A stretch of 64,000 nt of DNA from Squalus acanthias (Eukaryota). The notes beneath the pieces were generated by a model, which had not been told where the DNA came from, did not search any database, and saw only the letters and a list, made by a program, of their open reading frames with translations. Of the stretch, positions 27,235 through 64,000 are shown one piece after another. The first letter of the stretch is position 1. Every line of letters starts with the position of its first letter. The DNA is taken from the NCBI GenBank assembly GCA_030390025.1, contig CM059431.1, forward strand, positions 120,778,001 to 120,842,000, written 5' to 3'. The position numbers and the translations under genes are program-made.

Positions 27235-27878
27235 ATAAAGATTAAAATGAAACAGAAACAGCAGGCTTATGACAATTGTAAGGTTCAGAATACAGTAGAG
27301 AACCATGATGACTATAGAACATACAGAGGAGACCTAAAAAGGGAATAAGAGGGGCAAAGAGAAAGTATGAGAATAGATTAGTGGCTAACATAAAAGGGAG
27401 CCAAAATTCTTTTTATAAACACCTAAATAGTAAAAGGGTAGTCAAAGGAAGGGTGGAGCCGATTAAGGACCAAAAAGGAAATCTTCTTGTGGAGACAGAG
27501 GGCATGATTGAGGTACTAAGGGGGCGAAATTCATTATAGCCCAGTAATGGACGCTAACTTCTGAAAAGTTTGAGATTTAGCGCCAGGCGCTAATGAATCT
27601 CGCTGCACACAAAATTCAGTGTCATCGCTCAAAGAAAGGATGGGAGCGCTGAATCAAGCGCTAATGACCGAGCTCAGTGGAGTTAGACTCAAAGCGCGAA
27701 GCAATTTCAGGTGCAGTCTAATCGCTAGTCATCATTGCCACAGGCTCTTTCCAGTTCTTAAAGGGGAGGTTCAATCATGCTGCAGAACCTCATTCTCAGC
27801 ATTGCTGGTTCTGCAGCTGTCTCAGCAAGAATCAGAAGGCCCAGGAGAAGGAACCGGACCACTGAAGGAGGTGTCATT

Positions 27879-29778
27879 ATGGCAGATCAACGGCCCAGGG
27901 AGAGAGCTCGCAGATTCTGTGATCAGGCATTGGAGGCATTGGTCTTCACTGTGGCGAGACGGAGGGCGGTGCTGTACCCGGCAAGTGGCAGGAGGCCCTC
28001 ACCGCAAGTCTTCCGCGCCATGTGGAGGGAGGTAGCCCAGCAGGTCTCGGGCAGCACTGTGGTCCCCAGGACCCACACACAGTGCAGGAAGAAATTTAAT
28101 GACCTCACTCAGGTGGTCAGGGTGAGTCAATGCCTCAACAAATGCTACATACCACCATCTGAACCACAGTCTGCACACACTGCCCAATGCACCACACCCC
28201 CAGCACTCACCCACCAACAATCTCTACCTACCAACACTCACACCCACATCTCACACATTGCACACAATGACAGCTATTCAACTATGGCAGGCACATCTCC
28301 CAAACACATTGCTCCACACTCACTCACACACTTTCCTCTCTCTTGCAGGCCGAGGTTGCTCACAACAGGAGGGAGCAGGAGCGCACAGGCGGGGGACAAA
28401 CCGACACCCAACCACTGTCTGATCTGGAGAATAGAGTGCTGCAAATCATTGGGCGACAGGTGGTGGGCGCGTGGCCACCTGTGACGTTGATCCCCTCGGG
28501 GACAACAACGGTACATTTATCCCTGCTCCTTCTTCTCACATCCCACTTCTCTCTCACCCCACAAGCCTTTCCCACTTTCCAGCTAATCTTGCTGTATGCA
28601 TGCCTTTCTCCCTTCCTGCCCCTCTCCCCTCACCTTAACCCGACTCTTGTGCCTTTATGTTTTCAGATAATGAGCAAGCACCTGAGCAGCCTGTCCCTGA
28701 GGGCACCATGGAGAGCGAGGCGGGAGAAGAGGAGGAGGAAGAACACACCACGTCACTGCATGTCTCACCCACAGGCACCAGCTCAGATACTGGCACTATG
28801 TGCTCTTTAGAGGCTCGTATAGTAGTGGGATATGCACAGGGTGAGGCACCTGGGAACGAGCGGGCTGCAGCAAGGTCAGGGGAAAGGGTAGCTCAGGACT
28901 CAGCTCCCCGGAGGGCGAGTTCGCATGCGTGTTCTGCTGCACAGGACTCAGATGAGGATCTCGATGGGGAGGCCTTTAGAAGAAGGGTGATGGGCATGCA
29001 CACGGAGATGATAGGTGCAATGGCAAGGGTGCCCGACAGCCTCTCGGCAATGGTAAGGAGTGTGGAGGAGTCCGCCTCCAACATTGCACAGAGCTCTGCG
29101 CACACCATGGAACCCATTATTTGCAGTCTGCAAAGGGTGGTGGACTCCCAAAGAGACTGAGGTGACACAGACCTCATGCCGAGTGTGATGGGCGAGGTCG
29201 CAGCTTCCATTGCAGCACAGGCGGAAGTGACGCAACGTCTTAGTGCTGTAATGCAGTCTATGCTTGGTGCCATCGATTCTCAAACTGCTCTCAAGCAGTC
29301 TCAGCTTGACGCTGCTTTGACTGCTGCCATCGTGGCTGGGTCAACCACCATCCACCGGGGCTTTCACAGTGTCGCATCAGGCCAGCAATCTGTGCTCCAG
29401 CAGATTGGTAGTGATGCTGAGGTGCTGCCCCAGGGCAGTGCCAGTGGGTCAGTGGAGCAGGAAGCTGCTGTCCTCTCTCAGGATGACAGCATTCCTGCTC
29501 CCACCACTGGCACTCCGCCATTGCCCTTGTCGCTGCCTGTCATCCAGCCAGCCCAGACTGCTGCCGCCCATGCTGAGGTGGTGCAGTCTACAACTAGGCC
29601 TTCCAGGCCCAGAGCTGGTCAAGGGTGTCCTGCAAGGCCATCTGAAGTCTCCCGCACGGACACTCAGCAGCCTTTCACCCGCCGTGCTGCAGCCACTGGG
29701 CCAACACCTCGTAGGAGCATGAGCGCAGGCAAAGGCACTGTAACAAGGGGCACAAAGGGATTGCACAAGGGTGAATAG
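27879..29778 (+). pseudogene. Harbinger Myb/SANT-like protein gene, exons ~27879-28121, 28349-28510, 28667-29778
   Basis: MADQRPRERARRFCDQALEALV..WREVAQQVS..PRTHTQCRKKFNDL; GTGAGT donor 28122, TTGCAG acceptor 28348, TTTCAG acceptor 28666; exon-2 frameshift and in-frame TGA at 29158. Confidence 0.85.
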
Positions 29779-50500: not shown

Positions 50501-50823
50501 ACGTCATCAAATCGAGGTGCAGACCTAGGTCTCTGGCTGGCCATTCTTGCTGCAGGTGCCTCGAACATGCAAAGGCAGAAGCTTGGCAGTCTGCAGAGGA
50601 AGCAAGGCTTGTTGCAGACCTTAAATGCTGCAGTAATGATGGCGTCATCGGAATCGACTTTCAGACTGGAAAAACTCACTGGCCATGGGTTCCCACACGT
50701 TGGAACTCAATTGGCCAATTATGTTAAAATCGCATCAATCTCCCACATCGATTTAGATTCGGGTGGCTAACATGAAATGCGGATTACACAACCTCAGCCC
50801 GCCCCTGAATCAAAATCCAGCCC
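47574..50823. mobile_element. Harbinger derivative retaining the Myb gene, transposase essentially deleted
   Basis: TIRs GGGCAGAATTTTC / CAAAATCCAGCCC, TSD TAT/TAT inside the CR1 tail. Confidence 0.8.
48581..50544 (-). pseudogene. Harbinger Myb/SANT-like gene (3 exons)
   Basis: MASQRPRSAPRFDDVALQVLI../LFP..WIQVAEEVNS..RRTWLQCRKRFHDL (frameshift in exon 1); EKRAHNKRERARTGGG; open 344-aa exon 3 (48581-49615). Confidence 0.8.
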
Positions 50824-51384
50824 TATGACTCTATGGCTGCACCCAGGCTCTCGCATGACTCCCTCCATATGCTTATGGAGGGAGTCACAACACGCAGGGA
50901 GGTTCTCTTCCCTTCCCATGGGTGGAAGAGACCTCCCTAGGATACCAACGCAGCCTGGTTGCACAGTGCGCAAGAGGGCAAAAGCAGGGATGTCGTCAGA
51001 GGACCAGGCTGCAGTGGCGCCAACCTTTCAATGATCTGAGCAGATCACGAAACGTAACTGCCAAGCCACACTCAACCTCATCCTGCTGTGCCACTCGTCA
51101 CATCCCCATCACTCTGCCTTCCCTACCCTACTCCTGCACATCCTTATTCACACCAACTTACCTTGCACCTCCACCCATCCCTCTCTAGCTACATTATCAC
51201 TTCCCATCTCACTAGTCACCCCTCACACTTACCCACATCCTACTGCAAACATACCAACTAACAACACACAAGGGTAGGCACTTGAGCGGTTTAGCCAAAG
51301 TTCATGTGAAGTTTCTGTTAATGTGTTGTCAAACATTGAAATCTATATTTTCAACACTTCACCTTATTGGACAGATCTGTATCA

Positions 51385-51720
51385 GTAATGGTGGCTATGA
51401 AACTACCGGATTGCCAGAAAAACCCAACTGGTTCACTAATGTCCTTAAGGGAAGCAAATCTGCCGTCCTCACCCAGTCTAGCCTATATGTGACTCCAGAC
51501 CCAAGGAATGTGGTTGACTCTTAACTGCCCTCTGAAATGGCCTAGCAAACCACTTGGTTGTACCAAACCGCTACGACAAAGTCAATGTGGGAGTTCCTTC
51601 GCCACAAGCACTGCAGCCGGTTCAAGAAGGCAGCTCACCACCACCTTCTCAAGGGCAATTAGGGATGGGCAATAAATGCAGCGACGCCCACATCCCGTGA
51701 ACGAATAAATAAATAAAAAT
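51385..51720 (+). mobile_element. 5'-truncated SINE (family of 43626-43998)
   Basis: Colinear with the reverse complement of 43626-43860; ends AATAAATAAATAAAAA. Confidence 0.75.
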
Positions 51721-51799
51721 ATTGTTTTCAGGGAAGGAGAAGGAAAATTTTCACTAATGGAAAGTGTAGAATAATAATCATCCAAGCTTGGAGATCTAT

Positions 51800-52650
51800 G
51801 CAACCAAGATTTTGTGATCGGTGTCGGGATGGGTGCAGGACAGCTGGTTTCCAGGTTCCGGTCCCGCCCCCAGCTGCCTCCGCTCCACAGAGGTGATTTT
51901 ACCTTGATTGACCTTGTTAAGCCCGTCCTTACCAGCCAATTAACAGGAAGCGGGTCTGATGACGTCATTTGATGACGCGTCATCTGCCAGTTTTCTTAAA
52001 GGGACCACGCACAATTTTATTTTGACAGTTGATTTCTCAGTGTTTGACAGCATTGAGGTGCTGAAAACACTGACAATCACTGCACAAAGGTCAACTCTTA
52101 CACCCAGGCTCTCCAATGACTCCCTCCATATGCTGTAGGTGAGGTGACAGAAGCGATCTGTCACTGGTGAGAGAGGTTCTCCCAATGAGGTGGCACTGGA
52201 CATATAGTTGGATTTAAAAACTTGTAAGCTAAAGAAATCTGTATATGTTTTAAAAATGCAGTAACCAACATGTTCTTTGCTCTGAAACTCACCATGTGCA
52301 ACATTGCATCCTTCACACCACTTCTGCAGCTGATATCTTTTCACAAACATTACAGCAGACTCACAACACGCCACACTTACCTGGCGTGGTGTCCGGACGT
52401 CGGGAAACCCGACCCAGATGTGGGAAAATCCAAAAACATGCTGAAACCTACTGACAAGTACCTGTTAATAGGCAGGAAATTGCCTTTAATCCATTTCCCA
52501 CTGCTAGGTGTCGGGTCCATTCGCAAATCGGGGACCCAACACTTGGGAAAGCTGTTTGGAGGTGGGTTGATGGCGGGTTTGGGACCCGCCGCCAATCAAC
52601 AGCACTTTAACCCCTGACGCGGCTCTCTGAGCGCCGGTAAAATTGCGGCC
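51800..52650. mobile_element. Harbinger-type MITE
   Basis: Shares CCTTGTTAAGCCC..CCAATTAA..GGAAGCGGGTCTGATGACGTCA with 26392 and 46823 elements; right end GTAAAATTGCGGCC. Confidence 0.6.
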
Positions 52651-52741
52651 TAAGTCTCTGACTTCCCAAAGATTTTGAAGATGTATGTCAGGGCCTAGTG
52701 TCTTTTCCACTTTGAGTTCCATCAACTTCTCTCAGTACTTA

Positions 52742-52907
52742 ACATAGAAACATAGAATCATAGAATGATACAGCACAGAAAAAGCTCATTCAGCGCATCA
52801 TGCCTGTGTCGGCTCTTTAAAAGAGCTATCCAATTAGTCCCACTCCCATGCTCTTTCATCATAACCCTGCAATTTTTTCCTGTGAAAGTATTTAGCGAAT
52901 TCCCTTT
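52742..52907 (-). mobile_element. CR1 3' end, interrupted by the provirus
   Basis: (CATAGAA)n tail then CR1 3' UTR and ORF2 end, cut abruptly at the TG of the LTR. Confidence 0.8.
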
Positions 52908-53925
52908 TGTAAGGGGTTTTGTGTCGTGCTTGTATCGCAGACGGTGCTGGTACGGGGTTAGGCCTTTGTTGCCTAATACTATTGCTTGCTCTGGTCTCTG
53001 TCCAGCCTTGTTGCAATAAGCACCTGTGAGTGGTTCGACCCACTCGCCCTTACGGTTCTAACACTGGACTCAGGTGCGAGAGCAGTAATGCAGAGAAAAA
53101 CTCAAATAGACTCGGCTGAATAGTACGAAATGGAAATCTTTATTGCATAGCGTCCAAGATCATGAAGTACATGTCATAGGCGCAAATTAACGAGAGTACA
53201 AGTATACATACATTCATAAAGCTTGGTCTATGGTAATGAAGAACACACGGCACATCGTAAAAAGGGGAACACATTATACTTTATCCTTAATAAAACCACC
53301 CTCCCTTATCAATACCTACACTACATCTAGATTTGTAGGATCGGGAAACATGCTCACCACTCGTGATACTGTAGAATTCGCAATATATCGCGATTTGATT
53401 AATGAGGAGAAAACACAAGTTTCGTTCAAACAGCTTTTATTTCAGCAGAATGCTGGCAGGTTTAAATTGGACACAAGCAGCCTGTAAAATGGCCACCGCA
53501 CCTCGTGACAGAACATTCTAGACTTTTCAACAGGCAGACAAGATGGCGTTCCAATAAACATTTGTGCAAGATCGATTAAGATGCAGCACAGTGAAGATAA
53601 TACACGAGACATTATGGGTTTGCAGTATAAACATAGATACTGGAATCGGTCTCCCAGGTACAAAGGAAAGCCATTGTACCGAGTAATCAAGGGCCCATCC
53701 AAAGGACATTAATATGTAAAATCCCAACGACTCTACGATGAGAGAGCCGTTAGCAGGTAGTTATACAGGACACTTGGAAGCCCCAAACCCCTCCAGGGAG
53801 AACACCGACCGATTTAACAATGGGAGAAATATTAACAGGTACTCAGACATTTACGAGTAGCCCCGAAACCCATTAAGAACGGAGATCACCCATACAAGAC
53901 ATTTGGGCGCCAAACCCTAAACAAA

Positions 53926-53999
53926 AGAATGGACATTATAGTTGGGCGGGAAACGGAAGATTTTTGCACTATAATTGCAGGCTCCAAACCGTCCATTCT
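53926..53999. promoter_or_regulatory. Candidate bidirectional core promoter at LTR centre
   Basis: GTCCATTCT on - (53926-34) and + (53991-99); ATTATAGT / ACTATAAT inverted pair (53935-42, 53968-75) around GGCGGGAAA (E2F-like) and CGGAAG (ETS-like). Confidence 0.5.
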
Positions 54000-54207
54000 C
54001 TCTCTTGCTCTTGCATTCGCTCGCTTGCTCCTGTGTTTTATCCGGTCGATTCGTAACCTCGTGGCTGCTCCTGTGTACTCGTAGTTGGGCTTCTGCTTGC
54101 CCGTTGCCTCTTCTGAAAAGACTGTTGAACTTTCTGATCCGTTCAGATCTACCTCGTGTCGCGTAACGAAGACCTATGTTGGTAACTGGCAGCGGAACCA
54201 AAGGCCC

Positions 54208-54236
54208 GAGATGAGATGAGATGAGATGAGATGAGA
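54208..54236. repeat. (GAGAT)n microsatellite within LTR
   Basis: Five-plus GAGAT units. Confidence 0.9.
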
Positions 54237-54782
54237 GGAGAAGAGAGGAAGACCATATCCATCGCCACGGTCAGTAAATCCCGACCGCGCCTGTAGGTCG
54301 ATCAGCCAAGTTTTCCTCGCCAGGAAGATTTCTATTTTGAACTTTTAACAAAACATATTGCATCGACGATAACGGGACTGTGTCTAAGGAGACTGGTACG
54401 TGAAACCAACCAACAGAGATCTTCATCACAGCAGACGGTCCAGCCTACTAGCCGGAGCAGCAGAAGCAAGTAAACAAGTGGGACCAGGAGATCTCCTGAC
54501 CGACACGTGGGTGCTGCGGTGAAAAACATCCGATCAGCTATTCGGAATTTCTCCGAGTTATCACGAGTGGTGAGCATGAGTCTCGAGATCCTACGAAGCT
54601 AGTTTAGGATAGATATTGATAGGGGAGGGTTTAAGGATTAAGGATATTTGTAATGTGTGCCCCTATTTACTTTGTGCCGTTCGTTCCTCGTTTCCCTAAG
54701 ATCGACTATATAACTGTTTGTAAGATTGTACTGTCATTAATCTGTGCTTATGACATGTATTTCATAATTTTAAGTATCATGC

Positions 54783-54788
54783 AATAAA
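54783..54788 (+). terminator. LTR polyadenylation signal (mirror copy on - at 53139-53144)
   Basis: AATAAA ~250 bp before LTR end, conserved in both arms and in the solo LTR. Confidence 0.7.
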
Positions 54789-55043
54789 GATTTTCCATTT
54801 CGTACCTTTCAAACCAAGTCTACATGAGTTTTATCTCCATTACTGCTCTCGCATCTAAGTCCAGTGTCTAGAACCGTAAGGGAGAGTGATTCGAACCACT
54901 CACAGGTGTGTCTAGTGTTCCCAGACTGGCTGGAGACCAGAACAGGCAACCAGGCCTAGACCCGCACTGACATACAGGCTGCACAGAGCCGCGTGAATCT
55001 CACAGGCTGCGAGACACGCAGGGTCAGGAATCCCTTACAGAAA

Positions 55044-56854
55044 ATGGCGACCGCGGCAGGACACTGGCAGCGAGAGGGTAGTGTGTTAGATTTTGGAATG
55101 ACTGTACGAAATGTTATGCAGGAAAAGATAGCGGATTATGTGTTTGGAAAGGTTAATCTAACCAAGAAATGGATAAGTGAATTGTTAGCGGATAAGAGCC
55201 CACTAGAGGCAGCTGAAAGGTGGACAGATAGTAAAGAACATAGAAAGACACTTGAGAAAGCAGTCTGGCTTATGTGCTACAAAAGGCAGGTTCAGATTTC
55301 AAACCAGACCATTACAGCGCTAGTAGCTCGAATCAGTCATTTAGAGGGAGAAATGGAGGAGAAGGTTTCTGGAGGGGAGGTGCTCATTAAGAATTTAAAT
55401 GAGTTACACCAGGAAAGCCAGGAAGTCTCCAGTCACCTTAAAACAAGGATAGAGTATCTCGAGTGCCAGGTCACTGAGGCAAAATTGAATGAGAGCAGGT
55501 TAAAGGAAAGATGTAACCGCCAAGCTGCCCAGATAAGAACTCAAGAAGAGAGCTTAATGGGGGTTAGGTCGGCATATAAGTTGGCCCTTGAGGATAAGTT
55601 TCAGGGAGCCGACCATAGCGCCTGCCAAAGGGAGATAGAGAACCTCAAAAAGGCCGTGAACATTGCGAACGGCATGGTGTGCCTTATCAATCCGTCGGCG
55701 CACCAGCCGCTAGTAAATGAGAGATTTAGAAAATCCCCACCAAGTAAAGCAGAAGAAGTAGTAGCCACTGCGCCCTCCGCGCCACCCAGCTATTCAGAAA
55801 CCTGGGTTAGGGAGGAAGCAATGGAAGAAACAAAAGAGCCCATTGAAAAGGAAGTAGAAAAGGGATCGCTGTATCCAGTAACGGGTATTAAAAGGGGCCC
55901 AAGCAGAAACGGTGGGAAGAACCGGGGGATCTCCTCGGACAGCTGGTGTTGCCTCACAGTTCACATCAGCTGAGAGCTATGATAAATCACGTACGGAAGC
56001 TGACCGAGATAGACGACCCTTCCGTACATTTCAGAGAAGTTGAGCAAGCCGCAGCCATTAACGGCTGCGATGATGGGGAGACAGCAAAAATGCTGCTGTT
56101 CTCATTAGACAGCTCGGTCCTTCAGTGTCTCTCAGGCGAGAGCAAGAGGGGAAACAAGAGTTATGAGGAATTAAAGAATGAGGTCCTAGAAGTGTTGGGG
56201 GCGAACGACGAAGGTCCGTTTGCTAGAGTGGGACAGACAGTGCAGATGGAGGGAGAACCCCCGAAGGTTTTTGCCGACAGGCTGTGGCCAGTATATGAGC
56301 GCAGCTGTCTAGGTGCGCCCGAGCGCGAAGATGTGGAAGGCGCCGCTTTAACTCATTGGCTTAGGTGCATAATAGCCAACAGTTTACCAGCCGTTAGAGA
56401 GCAGGCAAAAGCATGGTTTGATCCCAATGACCTCAACCTTACGGAAGAGTCGGTCTTGAATCGACTCACGTTAGGTTATCGTAATATAAGGGGTATGACG
56501 ACACGTCCCTTTAAGGGAAGAGTACATGAGGTACGACCCGCAGCCCCGTATCAAAGAGAGTGGCATCAGGAGGGTAATCGCGCCCCACAGGCAAGTAATG
56601 CTTGTTACGGGTGTGGGAAGACAGGGCACTGGCGCAAGCATTGCAGGAACCCTTGGAAGGATTCCAAGGATAAAAATCCCGCGGTCCGAGCCCAGGCGCC
56701 TGTCCCGGCTAAGGAAGCCAAGACACCCACCCCTCCCGACGACCTCGAAGCAGTGTTAGGAGCCATGCGCAAGCTGGTCTTGAATGCGCGTGGACAGGTG
56801 GCGGTCGCAACCGGCCCCGTAGGTGCCGCAGGACCGTCTAATAATGCCCCATGA
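55044..56854 (+). CDS. gag: Gag (split by one -1 frameshift near 55915)
   Basis: ORFs 54993-55973 (coiled-coil-like, PSAPPSY) and 55946-56854 (CA-like, CYGCGKTGHWRKHC knuckle at 56603-56644); true start may be ATG 55044, 55098 or 55116. Confidence 0.85.
55045..55062 (+). promoter_or_regulatory. Primer binding site, tRNA-Arg(UCG)
   Basis: TGGCGACCGCGGCAGGAC is the reverse complement of GTCCTGCCGCGGTCGCCA, which I recall as the 3' 18 nt of vertebrate tRNA-Arg-TCG. Confidence 0.85.
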
Positions 56855-59800
56855 CTAGAACCAGCACAGCCCGTCTACCTGTGTCCGCTTAGCTATGATG
56901 CGTGGAGGCGACCTGTGGTGGAGATGGAGGTAGAGAAACAGAAGGGCAGTTATTTGTTGGACACGGGAGCTTCTTGCACCATAATCCATACAGATGACCC
57001 TTTTGACTCGCCGCTATCTACCAAGGTCCCATTCACGTTGGCAGGGTTCACAGGAAAAGAACAGGCTGGCACGTTTTCCCTTCCGCTATCCATTCGTTTA
57101 GGAACACTTCGCCTTAAGTGGAAGTGTATACTGATGGCATGGCAAAAGGGGGGTGGAAGAGGTATTCTCGGGTCCGATCTCCTAGCGGGACACGGGATCC
57201 TCGTGGACCTCAGAAATCACTGTCTCTGGGGGGCTAAAGGTGAAAAAGGCGAGGTAATAGTGATTCCGGGGGAGGAAGAAACAGGGGTCCTGTGTACCGT
57301 ACAGCCATCCGGAGGCTACGACCTCAGGCTTATGGTCGCAGATGTCCCAACGGACATGCAAACGTACGTGTCAGATAATATGCACGCGTTTGCAACCCAC
57401 AAGCACGATTGTGGGAGAGTGGTCGGGTTTGAGGTCAGCGTAGATGGGGACCCCATGACCCGACCCCAAAAGCAGTATAACTTCCCCAAAGAAGCAGAAC
57501 CCGATATGGAGACAGCAATGTCTTCCTTGGTGCAGCAGGGCGTGTTAAGGCCGATAGCCACACACGTGAACTCCCCATTATGGCCGGTTAGGAAGCCGGA
57601 TGATTCGTGGAGAGCCACGGTGGACTACAGAGTCCTTAACAGTAACATTCCCGCCTGCGCGCCCACAGTAGCAGCAGTTGCTGACCTAATAGGGAGCATC
57701 CCAGCGTCCGCGACCACGTTCACGGTGCTGGATATCTCGAACGGTTTTTGGTCCATCCCGCTGCGGCGAGAGGACCAGTACAAGTTTGCCTTTACTTTCA
57801 AAGGGCAACAGTACACGTGGAACTGTCTGCCACAGGGTTTCCACAATAGCCCCAGTATTTTTCATCAGTGTATGGCAGGAAGTTTAAGGGAGTTTAGTCA
57901 GCCCAATCAGATAGTACAGTATGTGGATGATTTGCTCCTATTTACGGACTCAAGGGAGGAGCACGGACCACTGCTGGGCGAGTTATTGGAGCTGTTAGCG
58001 AGAAAGGGTTTTAAAATAAACCCTAAGAAAGCACGTATCGGTCAGCGGGAAGTAAAATTCCTGGGACTGACCATACGCGCTGGGGAAAGAGCCATAGACA
58101 AAGCAAGGAGGGAGTCGGTGCAAGAATTACCGATTCCCAACAACGTAAGGGGTGTGAGGTCCTTCTTGGGACTGACCGGTTACTGCAGGGATTTTATCGA
58201 AGATTATGCGGCCACAGCGGCGCCGCTCCTCCGACTCCTCCATAAGGGGGTGGAGTGGTTTTGGGACGAGGGCTGCCAAGCAGCCTTCGAGAAGTTAAAA
58301 AGGGATCTGCAGACCGCGCCAGCCTTAGGGGCCATAGATGGGGGGAAGGAGTTTTTCCTGGAGGTAGCTGCCAGCGGAGACAGCTTAAGCGCCGTGCTGC
58401 TCCAAGAGCGTCACGGCAAGCTGAGGCCGGTTGTCTATTCATCCAGGGTATTAACGGATGTGGAGAGAAGTTTCTCCAATTGCGAAAGGCACCTTTTAGC
58501 CACGCATTGGGCTGTGAAAAGATCAGCGATCTTCACAGGGCTCTCTCCCATCACTCTCCTCACACATCACACACCAACTAAGATGCTTCTGGATGGGAGG
58601 ATTAAAGACGGGACCGTAAGCAGCGCACGCATTGCGCGTTGGACCCTTCTTCTCTCCCAGTTGGATCTTAGAGTAAAAGGTCTTTGCGAGCCCAGGCTTG
58701 CGGCCAATTTGGTATACCCCGGTACAGCCCACCGGTGTTCGGTGGAAGGGGTGTGGGACGTCAACATAGGTTTACGGGCCGGGATACATCCCACTGGGCG
58801 CGAGATTTATGTTGATGGGTCTAGCACAGTGTCTGCTGGCGAGCGACTCACAGGGTGTGGAGTTTATGACCCTGCGGCAGACCTTGCCCTGGCGATCAAG
58901 CTCCCTAGCACCATGAGCGCGCAGCAGGCTGAGCTGTCTGCCGTGGTGTACGTTGTGACCCACCCAGACATTTTCCCAACCCCATACACGATTTGCTCGG
59001 ACAGTATGTTCACCTGCAATTCGTGTACGGAATACCTGGCCATTTGGTCCCGCCGCGGATACACCTCCGCGGACGGGCGACCTTTAACGGTGAAGCCCTT
59101 GCTGGAAAAGATCTTAGCAGCAGCAGTAGGGGAGGAAGGAGAGATTTTCATCCATAAGGTGAAAGCTCACTCCTCCACAGAGCCCCGTGGGGAGGGCAAC
59201 CGGCAGGCGGATGCGCTAGCCAGGGAGGGTGCCCGCGACGGCACTTTCTGGAACCCCTACAGGACCGGACCCATAGCAGCGGTCCGAGGCGGGGACGGGA
59301 ATACCGGGAACACCAGGGTAGCATTGCCCCTAGACCTCAAAACCGTCCAAGCCCAGGATCCCGCCCTAAAAGCAGTCCTAAAAACGATTGCTGAGGGGAG
59401 GCAGGTAGAAGGTCCGTACAGTACGGCAACCCTCTCAGTTAAGGAAGGCATGCTGTTCCGCGAGGAGCAGTGGGTTGTGCCGCAGCAGCACAGGAGGGAA
59501 TTCCTCCAGTTGGCTCACGAGGGACCAGGGGCAGGGCACCCCGGGCCCGAGGTTACCTGGCAACGGGTAGAGCAAGCGGGATGGTGGCCAGGGCTCAGGG
59601 AACAAGTCCGCGAGTTCTGTGCAAACTGTCTTGTGTGCGCCGCAAACAACCCAGACCCCCAGAAAAGGAAGGTGCCCATGGGACACGTAAGAAGGGTAGA
59701 GGGACCATGGCAGTCGATACAGATCGACTATATAGGACCCCTGCCCACCACCCAGGGAGGTTATAAGTACTGCCTCGTCCTGGTGGATGTGTTTTCCAAG

Positions 59801-61378
59801 TGGGTGGAAGCCTTCCCTTGTCGAACAGCTACAGCACTGGGTACAGCAAAAATCTTGGTCCGGGAAGTGTTCTCGCGGTGGGGACTTCCCCGTTTTGTGG
59901 AGTCAGACCAAGGGAGTCATTTCACCGGCCAGGTGATGCAGAACACCCTCATGCTTTTGGGCATTGAAGGGAAGTGGCACGTAGCACACAATCCCCAGTC
60001 ATCCGGGATTGTTGAACGTATGAACCGGACCCTGAAGGAGAAATTGAGGAAAGAGACTAGGAACTCGCCCCAAAAATGGGCGGAAGTTCTGCCTTTAGTC
60101 CTCATGGGGGTCCGGGCCAGTCAGTCAAAAAGTACGGGGTACTCCCCGCACGAGGTAATGACTGGGAGGCTCATGCGAACCCCCACCCATGTGCTAGCGC
60201 CGGTGCTCACTGAGGGTCAGCTCCAAGAGATAAGCAGGGACAAGTTCGCCCAGACTCTCTTGGAGCGCCTGAAGCAAGTTTATGAGCAGGCGGCTGGGAA
60301 CATGGGAAGGCAGCATCAGGGCAATCGCTTGTTGCTGGAACCCCGCAAAACGCGGGAGTGGGAAGTAGGAGACCAGGTCATGGTCAGAAACTACGCCAGA
60401 GTAGGGAGTCTGGAACCACTGTATATGGGACCCTACAACATTGTAGACAAGGCGAGTCCCATGGTTTACGCCGTAAAAGTACCTCGGCGCACTAAGTGGT
60501 TCCACATAAACCAATGCAAACTGTACCAGCCGGGTGCGCAGGGGAAAACTACAGGGGTAAATCCCGCCAATGGGAAAGCACAGCCCCAGGTAGGACCACA
60601 AGGCACACAGGCAGGCATAGCAGCTTGCATCAGGGGAAGGGACATCCCGGACGATCATGCAGCGTTTTTCTGGAGTTGGGGGTTAGATGAGGAAGAACCC
60701 AGGGTACCCTGGTCAGATGAGGATAGTGCAGATGAGCATAGTGATGATGACGGGTGGTTCCTGAGGAACGGTCTGGAGGGAATGGGGCCTATAGGTAGAG
60801 ACCCACACAGAGTGGACACACAAGCTGCAGGTCCCGAGGACAGGAGGGAGGAGCTAGAGGAGGCAGGGCCAGCCGCTATAGGAGCACAGAGAGTACCGAT
60901 GTGGCTCCCAGAGATGTGGCCGCCCGCTTTGAACGTCCAGTCCTCAGGGGAGGCAGAGATCACGAGTGAAGGGCCGCCTGCTGGGCCGAGCAGGGCGGAG
61001 CCACGAACTGCCAGCCCCGAGGTTAGGGAGGCGGAGTCAGCGGAGGCGGAGCCGGCGACTGTGATGGAACCCCAGGTCATCCCGTTGGAGGTCTCGGAAC
61101 CCGGTCCGTCCGTCACGGAACCCCCGCCCATAGCAACTCCCCGTAGGTCAAGTAGAGAACCCCAGCCCAGGAGGATGTGGTCATGTCCCCAGACTGCCCC
61201 AAGGCGTAGACTTCAGGTTAAGATAACCCGGGTACAGACCGGCCACATCGCAGCAGTAACAGGCTGCGGCAGATCAGAGGGAAGGGTCAGCGCAGCAACA
61301 GGCTGCGGCAGATCAGAGGGAAGGGTCAGTGCCCTCCCACCGTCGGGAAGAGCTCGCAGCAGCCTTCTCAGAATTTAA
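56855..61378 (+). CDS. pol: Pro-Pol: protease, RT, tether, RNase H, integrase with GPY/F module, C-terminal extension
   Basis: LLDTGA (56960), LPQGFHNSP, YVDD (57920), YVDGS..SAQQAEL..SDS..GNRQAD, H-H-C-C, IDYIG/SDQG/VERMNRTLK, MGPY; open and in frame with gag from 56855. Confidence 0.97.
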   Translation, partial: LEPAQPVYLCPLSYDAWRRPVVEMEVEKQKGSYLLDTGASCTIIHTDDPFDSPLSTKVPFTLAGFTGKEQAGTFSLPLSIRLGTLRLKWKCILMAWQKGGGRGILGSDLLAGHGILVDLRNHCLWGAKGEKGEVIVIPGEEETGVLCTVQPSGGYDLRLMVADVPTDMQTYVSDNMHAFATHKHDCGRVVGFEVSVDGDPMTRPQKQYNFPKEAEPDMETAMSSLVQQGVLRPIATHVNSPLWPVRKPDDSWRATVDYRVLNSNIPACAPTVAAVADLIGSIPASATTFTVLDISNGFWSIPLRREDQYKFAFTFKGQQYTWNCLPQGFHNSPSIFHQCMAGSLREFSQPNQIVQYVDDLLLFTDSREEHGPLLGELLELLARKGFKINPKKARIGQREVKFLGLTIRAGERAIDKARRESVQELPIPNNVRGVRSFLGLTGYCRDFIEDYAATAAPLLRLLHKGVEWFWDEGCQAAFEKLKRDLQTAPALGAIDGGKEFFLEVAASGDSLSAVLLQERHGKLRPVVYSSRVLTDVERSFSNCERHLLATHWAVKRSAIFTGLSPITLLTHHTPTKMLLDGRIKDGTVSSARIARWTLLLSQLDLRVKGLCEPRLAANLVYPGTAHRCSVEGVWDVNIGLRAGIHPTGREIYVDGSSTVSAGERLTGCGVYDPAADLALAIKLPSTMSAQQAELSAVVYVVTHPDIFPTPYTICSDSMFTCNSCTEYLAIWSRRGYTSADGRPLTVKPLLEKILAAAVGEEGEIFIHKVKAHSSTEPRGEGNRQADALAREGARDGTFWNPYRTGPIAAVRGGDGNTGNTRVALPLDLKTVQAQDPALKAVLKTIAEGRQVEGPYSTATLSVKEGMLFREEQWVVPQQHRREFLQLAHEGPGAGHPGPEVTWQRVEQAGWWPGLREQVREFCANCLVCAANNPDPQKRKVPMGHVRRVEGPWQSIQIDYIGPLPTTQGGYKYCLVLVDVFSKWVEAFPCRTATALGTAKILVREVFSRWGLPRFVESDQGSHFTGQVMQNTLMLLGIEGKWHVAHNPQSSGIVERMNRTLKEKLRKETRNSPQKWAEVLPLVLMGVRASQSKSTGYSPHEVMTGRLMRTPTHVLAPVLTEGQLQEISRDKFAQTLLERLKQVYEQAAGNMGRQHQGNRLLLEPRKTREWEVGDQVMVRNYARVGSLEPLYMGPYNIVDKASPMVYAVKVPRRTKWFHINQCKLYQPGAQGKTTGVNPANGKAQPQVGPQGTQAGIAACIRGRDIPDDHAAFFWSWGLDEEEPRVPWSDEDSADEHSDDDGWFLRNGLEGMGPIGRDPHRVDTQAAGPEDRREELEEAGPAAIGAQRVPMWLPEMWPPALNVQSSGEAEITSEGPPAGPSRAEPRTASPEVREAESAEAEPATVMEPQVIPLEVSEPGPSVTEPPPIATPRRSSREPQPRRMWSCPQTAPRRRLQVKITRVQTGHIAAVTGCGRSEGRVSAATGCGRSEGRVSALPPSGRARSSLLRI

Positions 61379-61690
61379 AGGGGCCGCCCTGAGAACGGGC
61401 GGCACTGTAAAGTTATAGTTCTAAGTTTTAAGTTTATAAGTAACAAGGTTAAGTTTTAAGTTTATAGTTCAAGGTTAAGGTTGTAATTTTAATAAGGCTA
61501 AGTTTGTAGTGTTTTTAACAGAAAACGATAAATGATGGGAGTTTTAAGGTTAGGTTTAGAGGAAGTTTATTCAGCAAACGTTGAAGCTTACGTGAGGCGA
61601 GGTCAGGGGACCCGCTCACCCTTCACAAGAGCCAGAGACTCTTGCGAGGCTGGCTACCTCATTCTATCTGATCACAGGAACCAAGGAAGG

Positions 61691-64000
61691 ATGGAACGAA
61701 TTCTAGTATTGCTCGTGGCAATCGGATGTGGATTGGCCTATCGAGGCCACACCAAGGATGTCGTGGTGTTTGGATGTTCCGGGGACACGGCCCCCATCGC
61801 GGTGGACGGGACCGGAAGACGGAAGGCAGAGGGGACCAGCACCTATTTCCACAAGGGAAGGTGGCCAGGATGGCTGGGAACGAACTCAACGGAGTATTCC
61901 AGCACATCGGGGTTTGCCTACCAAGAGACTTCTTTACTGTGCCCCAAAGTAAGGATCATCGCACCCAGGATCAGCGTCACCGTCGGCAAACGGATTTGTT
62001 TGACTTGTAGTGGGAAGGTCCCATTGAGCCGATGGTGGTGGCTGCGAAAGCTGAGCAAAACTATGAGAAACTCTTCGGTCGAGTGGGAACGACTGGGTAA
62101 TAATACCCATCGGACAATTACGGGGACAGACGGACAAGTGAAAGTCTGTTGGGACAAATGGTGGGAACCGGATGAGGGGATTTATGTATGTATGTGGGGG
62201 TCAAAGTACGTTTGCCCCAAAGGCATCTCCATATTTTTTATTAATCAATGGCAGGATAACGGACAGGGGATGAGGTGGGATGCGAGCACCAGGGGGTGCG
62301 GAGCCCCATTCTCCCCGATCCCAGTAAATGCCACTGAACTCATTATGCGCCCACGCAAAGCCCCGCCCACGATTCCGGTGGTTCTAGCTGAGGAAGAAGG
62401 GTGCCCTAAAACTAGTAAGGGACCCGGGAATGGTTTGGTACTGGTCCCCACAGACCAGATACTCTTTCAGGGGGTACATTACGCGGTGGCCTCGGTGATT
62501 TTAAATCTCACTGAGGTACGGTTACCAGAGTGGTGCCCCAAAAAGACGGAACAGTTGTATCAGGTCCTGTTGACCAAGATGTTCAGACAATTTTACGAGT
62601 TTGATTTTGCAGAAATTGATAAGACAAGTTTGTACACCGCACCGCAGGAAGTTTTGGATCAAGTAGGGAGGCAAAGAAGGGGTTTGGTGAACGATGCGTT
62701 CACTGCTTTTAACACAGGGACATCTGTGGTCAACGCTCTAGACAGTGTGGAGCTGCAGACCCAGATTAATGGTTTAAAAACACAGTTAAAAGACATTCTA
62801 ACAGATGAGAATAAAGTGGTAGGGTCAGGTCTACACGAGGACCAAGCCATGACTCTCCATTTAAAGGAAATTATAGCAGAGCTGGAGAAACATGCGCGTA
62901 CGGTAAATGCCCTGATCAGGGAAGATCGGAATGCATCCGATCAAGCTGCGCAGAACGAGGTGTGCGTGCTTTACGGGGCGTGGTTACTGGGCGAGGGCCG
63001 CAGTAATTTGGAGGATTTAAAACAAGGTTTGGTTCCGTCCTGGATAAGTAACAAACACCTACGGGCGCTCCACCCTTTTCAGAACGCATTAAGTCCGTGC
63101 CAGCTCAGGCTAGCTTCAGAAGCTTACCCAGTCCCCGTGGACTGCGGACGATCAAACCATACTATTATGGGAATAGTATTACGCATGCCGGTTTTGGGCG
63201 ACACAGCAAAGCCCGCCCCGGTATATCGGGTAGAGAACATTGGTGTCATTCAGGGGGGAGCCCACGTTCGTTATGCAGCGGTTCCACCTTACGTCATCCG
63301 CTGGGAGCAAACGATGACAGGTACAGATCTCTCTGGTTGTCGTGGCAGGGGAGCACACATAATACTGTGCCCCCAGCACTTGAATGCCTTTTTAACACCA
63401 CAGTGCGGGTTCAGAACGGCTGGCGCCAAGTCCATGAATTGCACCATGGAGGCAATGGCACAAGATCATGTGCCTCCGCAGGTAGCATACATCGGGGGTG
63501 GAACATATTGTGTTACCACTGCAGCGCAACACTACCAGCATGGAAACCGTAGCCGGTGTCCGGTGAGTGACAGCAGTTTCTGTTTTAAACCCAGGGCTGA
63601 AGTTCAAGTAGCACAACAGCGAATTATCCCAATCCCTGAACCATCCACTGTTCATCTCACAGTAAAAGAGAATTTCACCGACTTGCAGCGATTTGTCGCG
63701 CATTTTGGATACCTCATTCCCCCTCTCCCTGAACACTTAACCAAACTTCTGAAAGCCGTCGCGGTATCACAGAAACATTTTTATACATTAGAGCAGAAAA
63801 CTGTCGAAATAGGAACAGACATTCTGGACATAGTAGTTCCACCGTGGTGGAATCTGTTCACTAATATTGAAGTGCCTTCATGGATCAGAATAGCCTCCCA
63901 CATTTTAGTCGTATGTCAAGTGTTTATCGTAGTGTACCTATTGGTCATACATTGTAAAAGAGACAAACGCCTCACCAAGCATGAAAACACGGGAGAGTGG
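61691..64000 (+). CDS. env: Env, F-type class I fusion glycoprotein (at least 770 aa, runs off window)
   Basis: Own translation, no stop: signal peptide MERILVLLVAIGCGLA, NxS/T sites, furin RQRR (62669-80), fusion peptide GLVNDAFTAFNTGTSVVNAL, heptad region, Cys-rich region, TM ILVVCQVFIVVYLLVIHC (63902-55), basic tail. Confidence 0.93.
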   Translation, partial: MERILVLLVAIGCGLAYRGHTKDVVVFGCSGDTAPIAVDGTGRRKAEGTSTYFHKGRWPGWLGTNSTEYSSTSGFAYQETSLLCPKVRIIAPRISVTVGKRICLTCSGKVPLSRWWWLRKLSKTMRNSSVEWERLGNNTHRTITGTDGQVKVCWDKWWEPDEGIYVCMWGSKYVCPKGISIFFINQWQDNGQGMRWDASTRGCGAPFSPIPVNATELIMRPRKAPPTIPVVLAEEEGCPKTSKGPGNGLVLVPTDQILFQGVHYAVASVILNLTEVRLPEWCPKKTEQLYQVLLTKMFRQFYEFDFAEIDKTSLYTAPQEVLDQVGRQRRGLVNDAFTAFNTGTSVVNALDSVELQTQINGLKTQLKDILTDENKVVGSGLHEDQAMTLHLKEIIAELEKHARTVNALIREDRNASDQAAQNEVCVLYGAWLLGEGRSNLEDLKQGLVPSWISNKHLRALHPFQNALSPCQLRLASEAYPVPVDCGRSNHTIMGIVLRMPVLGDTAKPAPVYRVENIGVIQGGAHVRYAAVPPYVIRWEQTMTGTDLSGCRGRGAHIILCPQHLNAFLTPQCGFRTAGAKSMNCTMEAMAQDHVPPQVAYIGGGTYCVTTAAQHYQHGNRSRCPVSDSSFCFKPRAEVQVAQQRIIPIPEPSTVHLTVKENFTDLQRFVAHFGYLIPPLPEHLTKLLKAVAVSQKHFYTLEQKTVEIGTDILDIVVPPWWNLFTNIEVPSWIRIASHILVVCQVFIVVYLLVIHCKRDKRLTKHENTGEW

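What the first reader, a model, noticed from the sequence alone, without database searches (positions are those of the whole stretch)
61943..62245. Immunoglobulin-like domain in the Env surface subunit
Seen: Env residues ~85-185 read PKVRIIAPRISVTVGKRICLTCSG..SRWWWLRK..WERLG..RTITGTDGQVKVCWDKWWEPDEGIYVCMW. This matches the V/I-set Ig signature: V-x-x-G-x-x-(V/I)-x-L-x-C (C106), a C-strand Trp about 10 residues later, and D-x-G-x-Y-x-C (C167), with 61 residues between the cysteines and a possible extra C103-C153 pair. A Pro-rich linker separates it from the F2-like core. Known: neither F-type fusogens nor classic retroviral SU normally carry an Ig-superfamily domain. Inference: a captured host Ig domain used for receptor binding or immune mimicry.
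Basis: partly seen in the sequence, partly recalled or inferred. Interest (0 to 1): 0.85.

Follow-up and report, generated by a model that had tools for sequence, protein, structure and literature searches.

The report
Ig-like domain on F-type retroviral Env
The envelope gene of an endogenous retrovirus in what is probably a cartilaginous-fish genome very likely carries an immunoglobulin-like domain ahead of a paramyxovirus-F-like fusion core; it is inherited within this virus lineage, probably binds the receptor, and no host donor gene was found.

Summary
Env residues 85-186 (window 61943-62248) carry the Ig signature in the right order and spacing: G99-x-x-I-x-L-x-C106, W117, D161-x-G-x-Y-x-C167. 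A strict pattern hit only this site in the window's six frames and 0 of 20000 shuffles of Env.

Every independent test points to an Ig fold, but none is strong.
- Pfam Ig_3 is the top hit in the window copy and in 7 of 7 older sub-lineages (best E 5e-4, 21 bits; cut-off 30).
- A 12-sequence profile hits the CRTAM IgV domain (E 0.0055).
- The nearest named protein-language-model clusters are all Ig families.
- A low-confidence AlphaFold model (pLDDT 49) is all-beta, and its best 50 matches in two fold searches are Ig-type chains.

The rest of Env is an F-type class I fusogen (Foldseek to hPIV3 F, E 7e-10).

The domain is not special to this provirus. It is conserved in skate and shark relatives and in older sub-lineages of the same genome (52-65% identity, dN/dS about 0.2). 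No host Ig protein was among the 50 hits of a search of 1.8 billion proteins, so recent host capture is unsupported.

Most likely it is the built-in receptor-binding module. This is a new variant of a known kind, of moderate interest.

The parts
61691..61747 (+). Env signal peptide (residues 1-19, MERILVLLVAIGCGLAYRG)
   Evidence: Hydrophobic start conserved in relatives; predicted helix 4-12. The cleavage site is inferred, not computed.
61748..61942 (+). Conserved N-terminal stretch of SU (residues 20-84), fold unknown
   Evidence: The motifs GCSG..API and GRWPGWLG(S/T)NS are conserved in skate and shark relatives. pLDDT is under 40.
61943..62248 (+). Ig-like domain (residues 85-186). Inferred strands: A/A' about 86-98, B 102-107, C 115-121, C' 132-135, D 141-146, E 149-154, F 163-168, G 178-183. 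Likely disulfides are C106-C167 and possibly C103-C153; the C-strand Trp is W117.
   Evidence: Motif statistics; Pfam Ig_3; PDB profile hits; protein-language-model neighbours; AlphaFold strands; fold searches; conservation and dN/dS.
62249..62425 (+). Pro-rich, probably flexible linker (residues 187-245), with sequon N213 and conserved C203 and C238
   Evidence: 9 Pro in 59 residues; sequon list; pLDDT under 50 over 172-234.
62426..62680 (+). F2-like core of SU (residues 246-330), ending in the furin-type site RQRR (327-330, window 62669-62680)
   Evidence: pLDDT is 88-95 over 241-300; the full model matches paramyxo-/pneumovirus F; site coordinates.
62681..64000 (+). F1-like fusion subunit (residues 331-770 seen): fusion peptide, long HRA helices 333-376 and 383-444, beta domains about 477-645 (including the F-type domain II region), helix 679-713, membrane anchor from about 732. 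The frame is cut by the window end.
   Evidence: Secondary structure and pLDDT; Foldseek against PDB and BFVD; weak profile hit to foamy virus gp130.
56915..61378 (+). pol of the same provirus (protease, RT, tether RNase H-like, RNase H, integrase)
   Evidence: Pfam hits to RVT_1, RT_RNaseH and RT_RNaseH_2, RNase_H, Integrase_H2C2 and rve; PDB hits.
54993..56854 (+). Two upstream ORFs of the provirus: a coiled-coil ORF (54993-55973) and a gag-like ORF with one CCHC knuckle (55946-56854)
   Evidence: ORF list; only a weak zf-CCHC hit, E 0.042. Context only.

Best explanation
Window 61943-62248 encodes a real but divergent immunoglobulin-superfamily-like beta-sandwich. It is I/V-type, about 100 residues long, with a core disulfide C106-C167 packed on W117 and probably a second, surface disulfide C103-C153 across strands B and E.

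The domain sits near the N-terminus of the surface subunit of an F-type (paramyxo-/pneumovirus-F-like) class I envelope protein. The provirus has gag, pol and env and is 'loki-like'. A Pro-rich linker joins the domain to the F2-like core.

Paramyxoviruses carry a separate attachment protein, and foamy viruses have a receptor-binding domain inserted before the furin site. This Env has neither. The N-terminal extension, with the Ig-like domain as its only recognisable folded unit, is therefore most likely the receptor-binding or attachment module, and engagement would release the F-like fusion machinery.

The domain is inherited within this virus lineage (skate, sharks, several older sub-lineages in the same genome) under purifying selection, with variation concentrated in the loops. 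It was not captured recently by this provirus, and its ultimate origin (old host capture or viral) is open.

Shown: the motif, its conservation and the F-type core. Inferred: the fold (about 0.8), the disulfides, and the receptor-binding role (about 0.5).
For: Motif:
- The strict Ig pattern matched only Env 99-167 in the window's six frames and 0 of 20000 shuffles.

Profiles:
- Pfam Ig_3 is the only Ig-family hit. It spans profile positions 5-74 of 78, with E 0.029 on the 130-residue piece.
- It is the top hit in 7 of 7 older sub-lineage copies (E 5e-4 to 0.015, positions 2-74 or 2-75 of 78) and in the relative P0010 (E 0.0085).
- PDB hits grow stronger as the profile deepens. The single sequence gave a JAM Ig domain at E 1.5. 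Three sequences gave CRTAM IgV at 0.05. Twelve sequences gave CRTAM IgV at 0.0055 over the whole domain, and 9 of 13 listed chains were Ig-superfamily.

Protein-language-model features:
- The nearest named clusters are all V-set, I-set or ig families, with scores 0.90-0.93.

Structure:
- The AlphaFold model of Env 71-200 is all-beta, with strands where B, C, C', D, E and F are expected. The full-length model adds strand G at 178-183.
- The Foldseek top 50 rows are entries with antibody, TCR, VNAR or embigin chains (E 6e-3 to 2e-2).
- The index-free VIA search gave mostly plain Ig-fold entries in its top 50 (Z 5.2-6.0, 73-104 residues aligned, model 18-117 = Env 88-187). These include antibody VL, catshark CD8alpha, TREM-1, obscurin and titin.

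Conservation:
- Identity is 75% to a skate protein and 54% to a sawshark protein, with all the motif residues kept.
- The 24 open segments from 28 loci of older sub-lineages are 52-65% identical and visibly keep the Cys/Trp motifs. C103, C106, C153, C167 and C175 are invariant in the 12-sequence alignment.
- dN/dS is 0.19 and 0.20 in the two quoted unsaturated pairs.
- Column entropy is 0.58 in predicted strands against 0.90 in loops (p = 0.01).

Context:
- The full-length model matches hPIV3, RSV and Langya F (best E 6.7e-10; 239 chains at E <= 1e-3).
- Only about 24 residues separate the F2-like helix from the RQRR site, which leaves no room for an inserted receptor-binding domain.
Against: - No Ig profile reaches Pfam's gathering score (best 21 bits against 30).
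- 11 of the 14 relatives scanned whole had no Ig-family hit at E <= 1.
- The AlphaFold confidence for the domain is low: mean pLDDT 48.7 alone and 45-67 in the full-length model.
- No Foldseek hit reached E <= 1e-3. VIA Z scores of 5-6 are below the level (8) at which the tool says a match is more than a common arrangement. PDB is also rich in antibodies, so beta-sandwiches tend to land there.
- The PDB profile searches also gave a non-Ig hit of equal strength, the ArfGAP1 zinc finger (E 0.04 and 0.0097), driven by the CxxC stretch.
- The disulfide geometry could not be inspected because no coordinates were returned.
- Nothing tests receptor binding directly.
Confidence: 0.65

Rival explanations
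1. Recent or traceable host capture: the domain was taken from a host Ig-superfamily gene and serves receptor mimicry or immune mimicry.
For: The best solved-structure matches are cellular adhesion or immune receptors: CRTAM IgV at E 0.0055, CD8alpha at 0.093, a DIP at 0.097 and a JAM Ig domain at 1.5. From recall, Ig domains are far commoner in animal hosts than in viruses, so a host origin at some time is a fair prior.
Against: - 0 of the 50 hits (E <= 1e-3) of the HMMER search of 1.84 billion representatives was matched through the Ig stretch alone. All 50 matched Env-family regions, and the 23 that were named are ERV-like or uncharacterised proteins or chimeric gene models.
- The domain is shared by skate, shark and older sub-lineages with saturated synonymous divergence, so it is old within the virus lineage.
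- Identity to any solved Ig domain is low, and no donor family stands out.
Confidence: 0.15
2. Not an Ig domain. The stretch is a Cys- and Trp-rich stretch of SU with a different or novel fold, and the Ig signature is a chance resemblance.
For: All profile hits are below curated thresholds. Model confidence is low. The profile-profile comparison with the N-terminal modules of other Env lineages is null. The CxxC stretch also draws zinc-finger hits.
Against: - The full motif was found in 0 of 20000 shuffles.
- The same family is the top hit in 7 of 7 sub-lineages, with near full-length profile coverage.
- Independent methods agree: language-model features and two fold searches on a template-free model.
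- Hydrophobic periodicity and the invariant residues fall on the expected core positions.
- From recall, a zinc finger is unlikely in a secreted, glycosylated ectodomain.
Confidence: 0.12
3. Internal duplication: the N-terminal Ig-like domain arose by copying the Ig-fold domain II of the Env's own F-type core.
For: F-type proteins do contain an Ig-superfamily-fold domain II (PMC11468914, passages). BLASTP showed a short echo between Env 618-630 and the stretch after strand F of the skate relative (E 0.19).
Against: The profile-profile comparison of the 12-sequence Ig alignment with a 10-sequence alignment of the domain II region gave probability 1.5% over 11 columns, outside the Ig core.
Confidence: 0.03

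Closest known systems
Lokiretrovirus Env (Wang & Han 2021, PMC7947760; passages and section 5 read)
   Same: A gag-pol-env element with a tether plus RNase H. Env has a signal peptide, a furin-type site, a fusion peptide, a coiled coil and a membrane anchor, and is F-like. Relatives occur in coelacanth and frogs, which belong to host classes listed in the paper.
   Different: The paper describes no Ig-like domain ('immunoglobulin' occurs 0 times) and lists no cartilaginous-fish hosts. This Env has no Pfam PF00523 hit at E <= 10. Its F-likeness rests on the model. Membership by RT phylogeny was not tested.
Paramyxo-/pneumovirus fusion protein F (for example hPIV3 F 1ztm, RSV F 3rki)
   Same: The core fold of the full-length model matches (E 6.7e-10; 239 chains at E <= 1e-3). 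It has a furin-cleaved F2/F1 layout, and an Ig-fold domain II lies inside the core (PMC11468914).
   Different: The high-confidence core of this Env starts near residue 240, behind an N-terminal extension of about 225 residues that holds the extra Ig-like domain. From recall, F starts almost directly with the core and relies on a separate attachment protein (HN, H or G), which this provirus does not encode.
Foamy virus Env gp130 (8rm0, 8rm1; PMC11468914)
   Same: A retroviral Env with an F-like core. It gave a weak profile hit at E 0.0083 and ranked 50th in BFVD.
   Different: The foamy virus receptor-binding domain is a large module inserted after helix HRC and before the furin site. Here that gap is about 24 residues, and the extra module is N-terminal and Ig-like.
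Epsilonretrovirus Env (walleye epidermal hyperplasia virus 1, walleye dermal sarcoma virus)
   Same: It is the best BFVD structural match of the full-length model (E 1.7e-15, and rank 10).
   Different: These proteins are much longer (1317 and 1159 residues) and the TM-scores are low. Whether they carry an Ig-like N-terminal module was not examined.
Cellular IgV/I-set domains of adhesion and immune receptors (CRTAM, JAM, CD8alpha)
   Same: They are the best sequence-profile matches, and they align over the whole domain with the B-strand Cys, the C-strand Trp and D-x-G-x-Y-x-C in register.
   Different: The E-values are marginal (0.0055 at best). The Env domain has extra Cys (103, 153, 175) and an unusual Trp-rich surface (WWW 115-117, W154, WW 157-158).
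Ig-like cores in other viral receptor-binding proteins (herpes simplex gD, murine leukaemia virus SU receptor-binding domain): recalled, not tested here
   Same: A beta-sandwich of Ig type is used as the receptor-binding scaffold of an entry glycoprotein.
   Different: They sit on different fusogen classes and show no sequence relation. Those cores lack the classical V/I-set sequence signature seen here (recalled).

Membership tests
Immunoglobulin superfamily domain (Pfam Ig clan: Ig_3, I-set, V-set) | B-strand Cys and F-strand Cys about 55-75 residues apart, in the contexts h-x-h-x-C and D-x-G-x-Y-x-C | tested here: met
   I102-C-L-T-C106 and D161-E-G-I-Y-V-C167 are 61 residues apart. The pattern is unique in the window and matched 0 of 20000 shuffles. 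The residues are invariant in 12 of 12 lineage sequences.
Immunoglobulin superfamily domain (Pfam Ig clan: Ig_3, I-set, V-set) | Invariant C-strand Trp 10-15 residues after the first Cys | tested here: met
   W117 aligns with the conserved Trp of a JAM Ig domain and of CRTAM and is invariant in 12 of 12 sequences.
Immunoglobulin superfamily domain (Pfam Ig clan: Ig_3, I-set, V-set) | Profile HMM score above the curated threshold | tested here: not met
   Ig_3 scores 15.3 bits for the window copy and 16-21 bits in 7 of 7 sub-lineages; the cut-off is 30. It is the top hit but sub-threshold.
Immunoglobulin superfamily domain (Pfam Ig clan: Ig_3, I-set, V-set) | Two-sheet beta-sandwich of 7-9 strands with Ig topology | tested here: inconclusive
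   The template-free models are all-beta with strands at the expected places, but pLDDT is 45-67. The best 50 matches in Foldseek and in VIA are Ig-type chains, yet E >= 6e-3 and Z <= 6.0.
Immunoglobulin superfamily domain (Pfam Ig clan: Ig_3, I-set, V-set) | Core disulfide between strands B and F | not testable with these tools
   No model coordinates are returned, so this needs disulfide mapping or a solved structure.
F-type class I fusion glycoprotein (paramyxo-/pneumovirus F-like) | Core fold (domains I-III, HRA, HRB) like solved F proteins | tested here: met
   Foldseek of the full-length model gave hPIV3 F at 6.7e-10, RSV F at 1.2e-9 and Langya F at 3.4e-9, with 239 chains at E <= 1e-3. 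The core pLDDT is 85-96.
F-type class I fusion glycoprotein (paramyxo-/pneumovirus F-like) | Sequence membership in Pfam PF00523 (Fusion_gly) | tested here: not met
   There is no PF00523 hit at E <= 10 for the 770-residue Env.
Lokiretrovirus | gag-pol-env with tether plus RNase H and an F-like env | tested here: met
   Pfam domains of pol, upstream ORFs and the F-like Env.
Lokiretrovirus | RT groups with lokiretroviruses, sister to other retroviruses | not tested
   No reference sequences were at hand. The only hint is that pol scores about equally to Ty3 (243 bits) and MLV/XMRV-type RT (237 bits) in PDB. The best BFVD Env match is an epsilonretrovirus.
Host-derived (captured) Ig domain | A host protein with specific, significant similarity to the domain | tested here: not met
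   0 of 50 hits at E <= 1e-3 in 1.84 billion representatives is a host Ig protein. Word-based searches found only Env relatives.

The most novel reading that the evidence does not exclude
An N-terminal Ig-like module may be the ancestral, built-in receptor-binding domain of the whole loki-like F-type Env family (skates, sharks, frogs, coelacanth). It would have been taken long ago from a host Ig-superfamily adhesion molecule of the nectin/CRTAM/JAM kind, and it would engage a host Ig-type adhesion molecule by the same V-domain-to-V-domain pairing that such molecules use.

Its fast-evolving loops would set host and cell range, and this would explain how an F-type fusogen works without a separate attachment protein. 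The differently sequenced N-terminal modules of the other Env lineages also show G-x-x-V-x-I-x-C, W and G-x-x-x-C motifs. One of them is auto-named Ig-like and one has a V-set hit at E 0.045. On this reading they would be diverged copies of the same module.
Probability: 0.2. Interest if true: 0.75.

Novelty: new variant of a known kind. Interest (0 to 1): 0.5.

Why it matters
F-type fusion proteins of paramyxoviruses need a partner protein to find the receptor, and foamy viruses solved this with an inserted domain of novel fold. A classical-looking Ig domain appended to the N-terminus of an F-type retroviral Env would be a third solution. It would give a concrete, expressible candidate for the receptor-binding part of a virus group whose entry biology is unknown.

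The same genome holds many near-identical copies and several older sub-lineages. This makes it a natural series for studying how such a domain evolves: conserved framework, variable loops. The finding does not show host gene capture, and the fold still needs a solved structure.

Tried and rejected
- Host donor search. The full-Env HMMER search of 1.84 billion representatives gave 50 hits, none a host Ig protein. Word-based searches gave 3 hits among 7999 candidates and 1 hit among 9, all Env relatives.
- Metagenome scan. Using the conserved peptides, 115 stretches matched a pattern but none was confirmed.
- Earlier findings of this scan. Nothing was found by place or by sequence.
- Common origin of the N-terminal modules of different Env lineages. 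hhalign gave probability 0.3% twice, so this is not shown. Pfam found no Ig family in 0 of 5 P0013-like segments from the genome. The PDB profile of that lineage gave only 2 hits, both antibody V domains, at E 0.66 and 1.2. The frog Env module had language-model neighbours in Ig families at only 0.82-0.84, below the tool's 0.9 line.
- Internal duplication of domain II. hhalign gave probability 1.5%, so this was rejected.
- Deeper alignment to lift AlphaFold confidence. Adding own-genome sub-lineages and 50 relatives (65 rows) still left the Ig region at pLDDT 45-67.
- Zinc-finger reading of the C-L-T-C stretch. The ArfGAP1 and Zn_ribbon_11 hits cover only the CxxC neighbourhood. I set this aside because the stretch lies in a secreted ectodomain.
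- LTR search. No direct repeats of 40 bases or more were found in window 50000-64000. The 3' end of the provirus lies outside the window.
- SMC-like gene reported for some lokiretroviruses. The coiled-coil ORF at 54993-55973 has no significant Pfam hit.
- Literature. A search for 'lokiretrovirus' together with 'immunoglobulin' returned 0 papers. 'Immunoglobulin' or 'Ig-like' occurred 0 times in PMC7947760, PMC9040795, 10.1101/2023.10.26.564294, PMC13709493 and 10.1101/2021.11.23.469661 (passages only). In PMC10072453 'Ig-like' refers to CD4, not to Env. Supplements were not opened, and subscription journals are not in the library.
Full report
**What is at the coordinates.** The window's last 9 kb hold a provirus. 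It has two upstream ORFs: a coiled-coil ORF at 54993-55973 and a gag-like ORF with one CCHC knuckle at 55946-56854. A pol ORF follows at 56915-61378, with protease, RT, a tether RNase H-like domain, RNase H and integrase. An env frame then runs off the window end. Env starts at 61691 (MERILVLL...), and 770 residues are visible.

**Is it more than chance?** The stretch has, in order:
- G99-K-R-I-C-L-T-C106
- W115-W-W117
- V152-C-W154-x-x-W157-x-x-x-D161-E-G-I-Y-V-C167

A strict regular expression for this Ig signature matched Env 99-167. That was its only match in 127,996 six-frame residues of the window, and it matched 0 of 20000 shuffles of the Env sequence. A looser form matched 3 of 20000 shuffles.

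**Sequence-profile tests.**
- Pfam gave Ig_3 as the only Ig-family hit. It aligned residues 88-167 to profile positions 5-74 of 78, with E 0.029 (15.3 bits) on a 130-residue piece and 0.45 on the whole Env. The gathering score is 30, so this is sub-threshold.
- The same family was the top hit in 7 of 7 older sub-lineage copies from the same genome (E 5e-4 to 0.015, 16-21 bits, profile positions 2-74 or 2-75 of 78).
- It was also the hit for the relatives P0010 (0.0085) and P0006 (0.58). The other 11 of 14 relatives scanned whole had no Ig-family hit at E <= 1, apart from V-set at E 0.045 for P0034.
- Against PDB sequences, the single Env gave a JAM Ig domain at E 1.5.
- A 3-sequence profile gave CRTAM IgV at 0.05 and 0.095, a TCR gamma chain at 0.68 and neurotrimin at about 2. 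It also gave an ArfGAP1 zinc finger at 0.04 and 1.3. In all, 5 of 7 hits were Ig-superfamily.
- A 12-sequence profile gave CRTAM IgV at 0.0055 and 0.0096, aligned from strand A' to strand G. It also gave CD8alpha at 0.093, a DIP at 0.097, and VEGFR1, VEGFR3, MXRA8 and neurotrimin. In all, 9 of 13 hits were Ig-superfamily. The other 4 were ArfGAP1 (twice) and MOG1 (twice).

The signal strengthens as the profile deepens, but it stays marginal.

**Independent methods.**
- Protein-language-model features of Env 80-190 had V-set, I-set and ig families as their nearest named clusters (scores 0.90-0.93). All ten best family-bearing hits were in one clan. The tool notes that a third of shuffled proteins also achieve that.
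- A template-free AlphaFold2 model of Env 71-200, built from a 10-row alignment, had mean pLDDT 48.7. It was all-beta, with strands at Env 102-107, 115-120, 132-135, 141-145, 149-154 and 164-168. These are the places expected for strands B, C, C', D, E and F.
- In the full-length model (65 rows), the region had pLDDT 45-67 and an added strand at 178-183 (strand G).
- Foldseek of the small model found no hit at E <= 1e-3. Its best 50 rows were entries holding antibody, TCR, VNAR or embigin chains (E 6e-3 to 2e-2, TM to target up to 0.57).
- The index-free VIA search of 48,161 chains gave mostly plain Ig-fold entries in its top 50, among them antibody VL, catshark CD8alpha, TREM-1, CD79b, obscurin, titin and FGFR2. 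Z was 5.2-6.0 and rmsd 2.8-4.6 A over 73-104 residues, covering model 18-117 (Env 88-187). The tool warns that Z under 8 may reflect only a common arrangement.

Taken together I put the Ig-like fold at about 0.8.

**Type and disulfides (inference).** There are 61 residues between the core Cys, with one C' strand and one D strand predicted. This fits an I-set or short V-like domain. My placement against the antibody light-chain framework is recalled, not computed. In that register C103 takes the outward-facing position three residues before the core Cys on strand B. C153 takes the outward-facing position between the two core hydrophobics of strand E, directly across from C103. C103, C106, C153, C167 and C175 are invariant in 12 of 12 lineage sequences, whereas C84 is replaced in the sawshark relative. 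The models' coordinates are not returned, so I could not check the geometry.

**What the rest of Env is.**
- The full-length model has a high-confidence core (pLDDT 85-96 over about 240-310 and 400-650).
- It matches paramyxo- and pneumovirus F: hPIV3 F at 6.7e-10, post-fusion RSV F at 1.2e-9 and Langya virus F at 3.4e-9, with 239 chains at E <= 1e-3.
- In the viral model library the best match is the Env of walleye epidermal hyperplasia virus 1 (1.7e-15). Glycoproteins of arli-, lispi- and chu-like viruses, baculovirus F and paramyxovirus F0 follow. Feline foamy virus gp130 ranks 50th. In all, 61 matches reached E <= 1e-3.
- By sequence there is no PF00523 hit. A family profile weakly hits foamy virus gp130 (E 0.0083).
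- RQRR at 327-330 is followed by a fusion-peptide-like stretch and long helices.

F-type proteins already contain an Ig-superfamily-fold domain II (PMC11468914, passages). That domain lies in the C-terminal part of the chain. The N-terminal domain shows no profile similarity to that region (hhalign probability 1.5%).

**Distribution.**
- The Ig-like stretch is 75% identical in a skate protein and 54% in a sawshark gene model. It is also present in a whale shark protein and in two metagenome proteins.
- In the window's own 3.7-Gb assembly, all 150 scored matches to Env 71-200 were 99-100% identical, out of 5630 first-look candidates.
- Of 20 fetched copies, 15 keep the env frame open to the end of the fetched stretch, and 5 are cut short.
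- Older sub-lineages exist too. From 28 loci, 24 open segments were 52-65% identical to the window copy, and the printed sequences keep the Cys and Trp motifs.
- Synonymous sites are saturated between the window copy and these sub-lineages. In the two quoted unsaturated pairs, dN/dS was 0.19 and 0.20.
- Column entropy is lower in predicted strands (0.58, n = 34) than in loops (0.90, n = 59; one-sided Mann-Whitney p = 0.01). The most variable sites lie in strand A, the B-C loop, the C-C' loop, the D-E turn and the F-G loop.

This is the pattern of a conserved framework with variable loops, maintained by selection while the viruses diversified.

**Other Env lineages.** More distant full-length relatives match this Env only from about residue 221-237 onward. 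They come from bamboo shark, smooth-hound, two frogs and an unnamed source. Their own N-terminal 140-180 residues differ in sequence. By eye they carry G-x-x-V-x-I-x-C, W and G-x-x-x-C motifs at the same place. One (P0013) bears the automatic UniRef name 'Ig-like domain-containing protein', and one (P0034) has a V-set hit at E 0.045. The window's genome also holds copies of this P0013-like type next to integrase-like ORFs (39 matches). Profile-profile comparison does not show homology between these modules and the one in the window (probability 0.3%). A shared origin therefore remains a hypothesis.

**Origin.** None of the 50 hits of the whole-library HMMER search was a host Ig protein. No donor can be named. 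A capture by this provirus or its close kin is not supported. An ancient capture cannot be excluded.

**Likely function (inference).** This provirus shows no separate attachment gene between pol and env. Only about 24 residues separate the F2-like helix from the cleavage site, so it has no inserted receptor-binding domain of the foamy virus kind. The N-terminal extension (residues 20-245) is the only part of SU outside the fusion core, and the Ig-like domain is its only recognisable fold. I therefore take it as the receptor-binding or attachment module on a flexible, glycosylated, Pro-rich tether (9 Pro in 59 residues). My confidence in that role is about 0.5. Immune mimicry is possible but nothing speaks for it.

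**Classification and literature.** The architecture and the F-like Env fit the published lokiretroviruses. Relatives occur in coelacanth and frogs, which belong to listed host classes. The paper lists five vertebrate classes and no cartilaginous fishes (section 5 read in full; term searches). RT phylogeny was not done. pol scores about equally to Ty3 and MLV-type RT in PDB, and the best viral structural match of Env is an epsilonretrovirus. 'Loki-like' is therefore plausible but unproven. No paper in the searchable library joins 'lokiretrovirus' and 'immunoglobulin' (0 papers). The papers I opened do not mention such a domain. Supplements and subscription journals were not seen.

**Verdict.** The Ig-like reading is well supported but not proven. 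The host-capture reading is unsupported, and the claim that F-type fusogens lack Ig folds is inaccurate. An N-terminal, classical-looking Ig module on an F-type retroviral Env is a new variant of known kinds, of moderate interest.

Noticed in passing
window 54993-64000 and the whole assembly (G000): This provirus belongs to a very young, very high-copy family. All 150 scored matches to Env 71-200 are 99-100% identical, out of 5630 first-look candidates. Of 20 fetched copies, 15 keep the env frame open through the fetched stretch.
   Followed up: partly
own-genome loci L040-L067: Older sub-lineages of the same Env type have Ig segments 52-65% identical to the window copy. They all appear to keep the Cys/Trp framework, and synonymous sites are saturated against the window copy.
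   Followed up: yes
own-genome loci L021-L039: Further Env lineages lie in the same genome, downstream of integrase-like ORFs. They have a different N-terminal module, like that of the bamboo shark protein P0013, which UniRef names 'Ig-like domain-containing protein'. Many copies carry stops.
   Followed up: partly
relatives P0002-P0051: By source names, the Env family occurs in a skate, six shark genera, three frog genera and the coelacanth. The 2021 lokiretrovirus paper lists no cartilaginous fishes among its hosts.
   Followed up: partly
full-length Env model (window 61691-64000): The best match among predicted viral structures is the Env of walleye epidermal hyperplasia virus 1 (an epsilonretrovirus; E 1.7e-15), ahead of paramyxovirus F0 and foamy virus gp130. 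This hints that F-type cores are widespread in fish retroviral Envs.
   Followed up: no
relatives P0003 and P0004 (sawshark): Two annotated host gene models ('Niban 1-like' and 'zinc finger protein ZFP2-like') contain pieces of this Env family fused to host domains. They are probably annotation chimeras across ERV insertions.
   Followed up: no
window 61997-62008: C103-L-T-C106 is formally a CxxC motif, invariant in 12 of 12 lineage sequences. It draws weak zinc-finger hits. From recall, gamma-type retroviral SU uses a CxxC motif for a labile link to TM. Nothing here tests such a role.
   Followed up: no
window 61748-61942: Env residues 20-84 are conserved across skate and shark relatives (GCSG..API, GRWPGWLG(S/T)NS) but have no family hit, and pLDDT is under 40.
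   Followed up: no
window about 60300-61378: The pol frame runs about 300 residues past the integrase. The tail is acidic and Pro-rich and ends in a tandem repeat (..TGCGRSEGRVSA.. twice).
   Followed up: no
window 1309-2550, 8185-9471, 9554-10855 (-), 16488-17279 (-), 27762-28484: The rest of the window is rich in repeats. Four long frames carry reverse-transcriptase (RVT_1) matches, and one carries a Myb/SANT-like DNA-binding domain.
   Followed up: no
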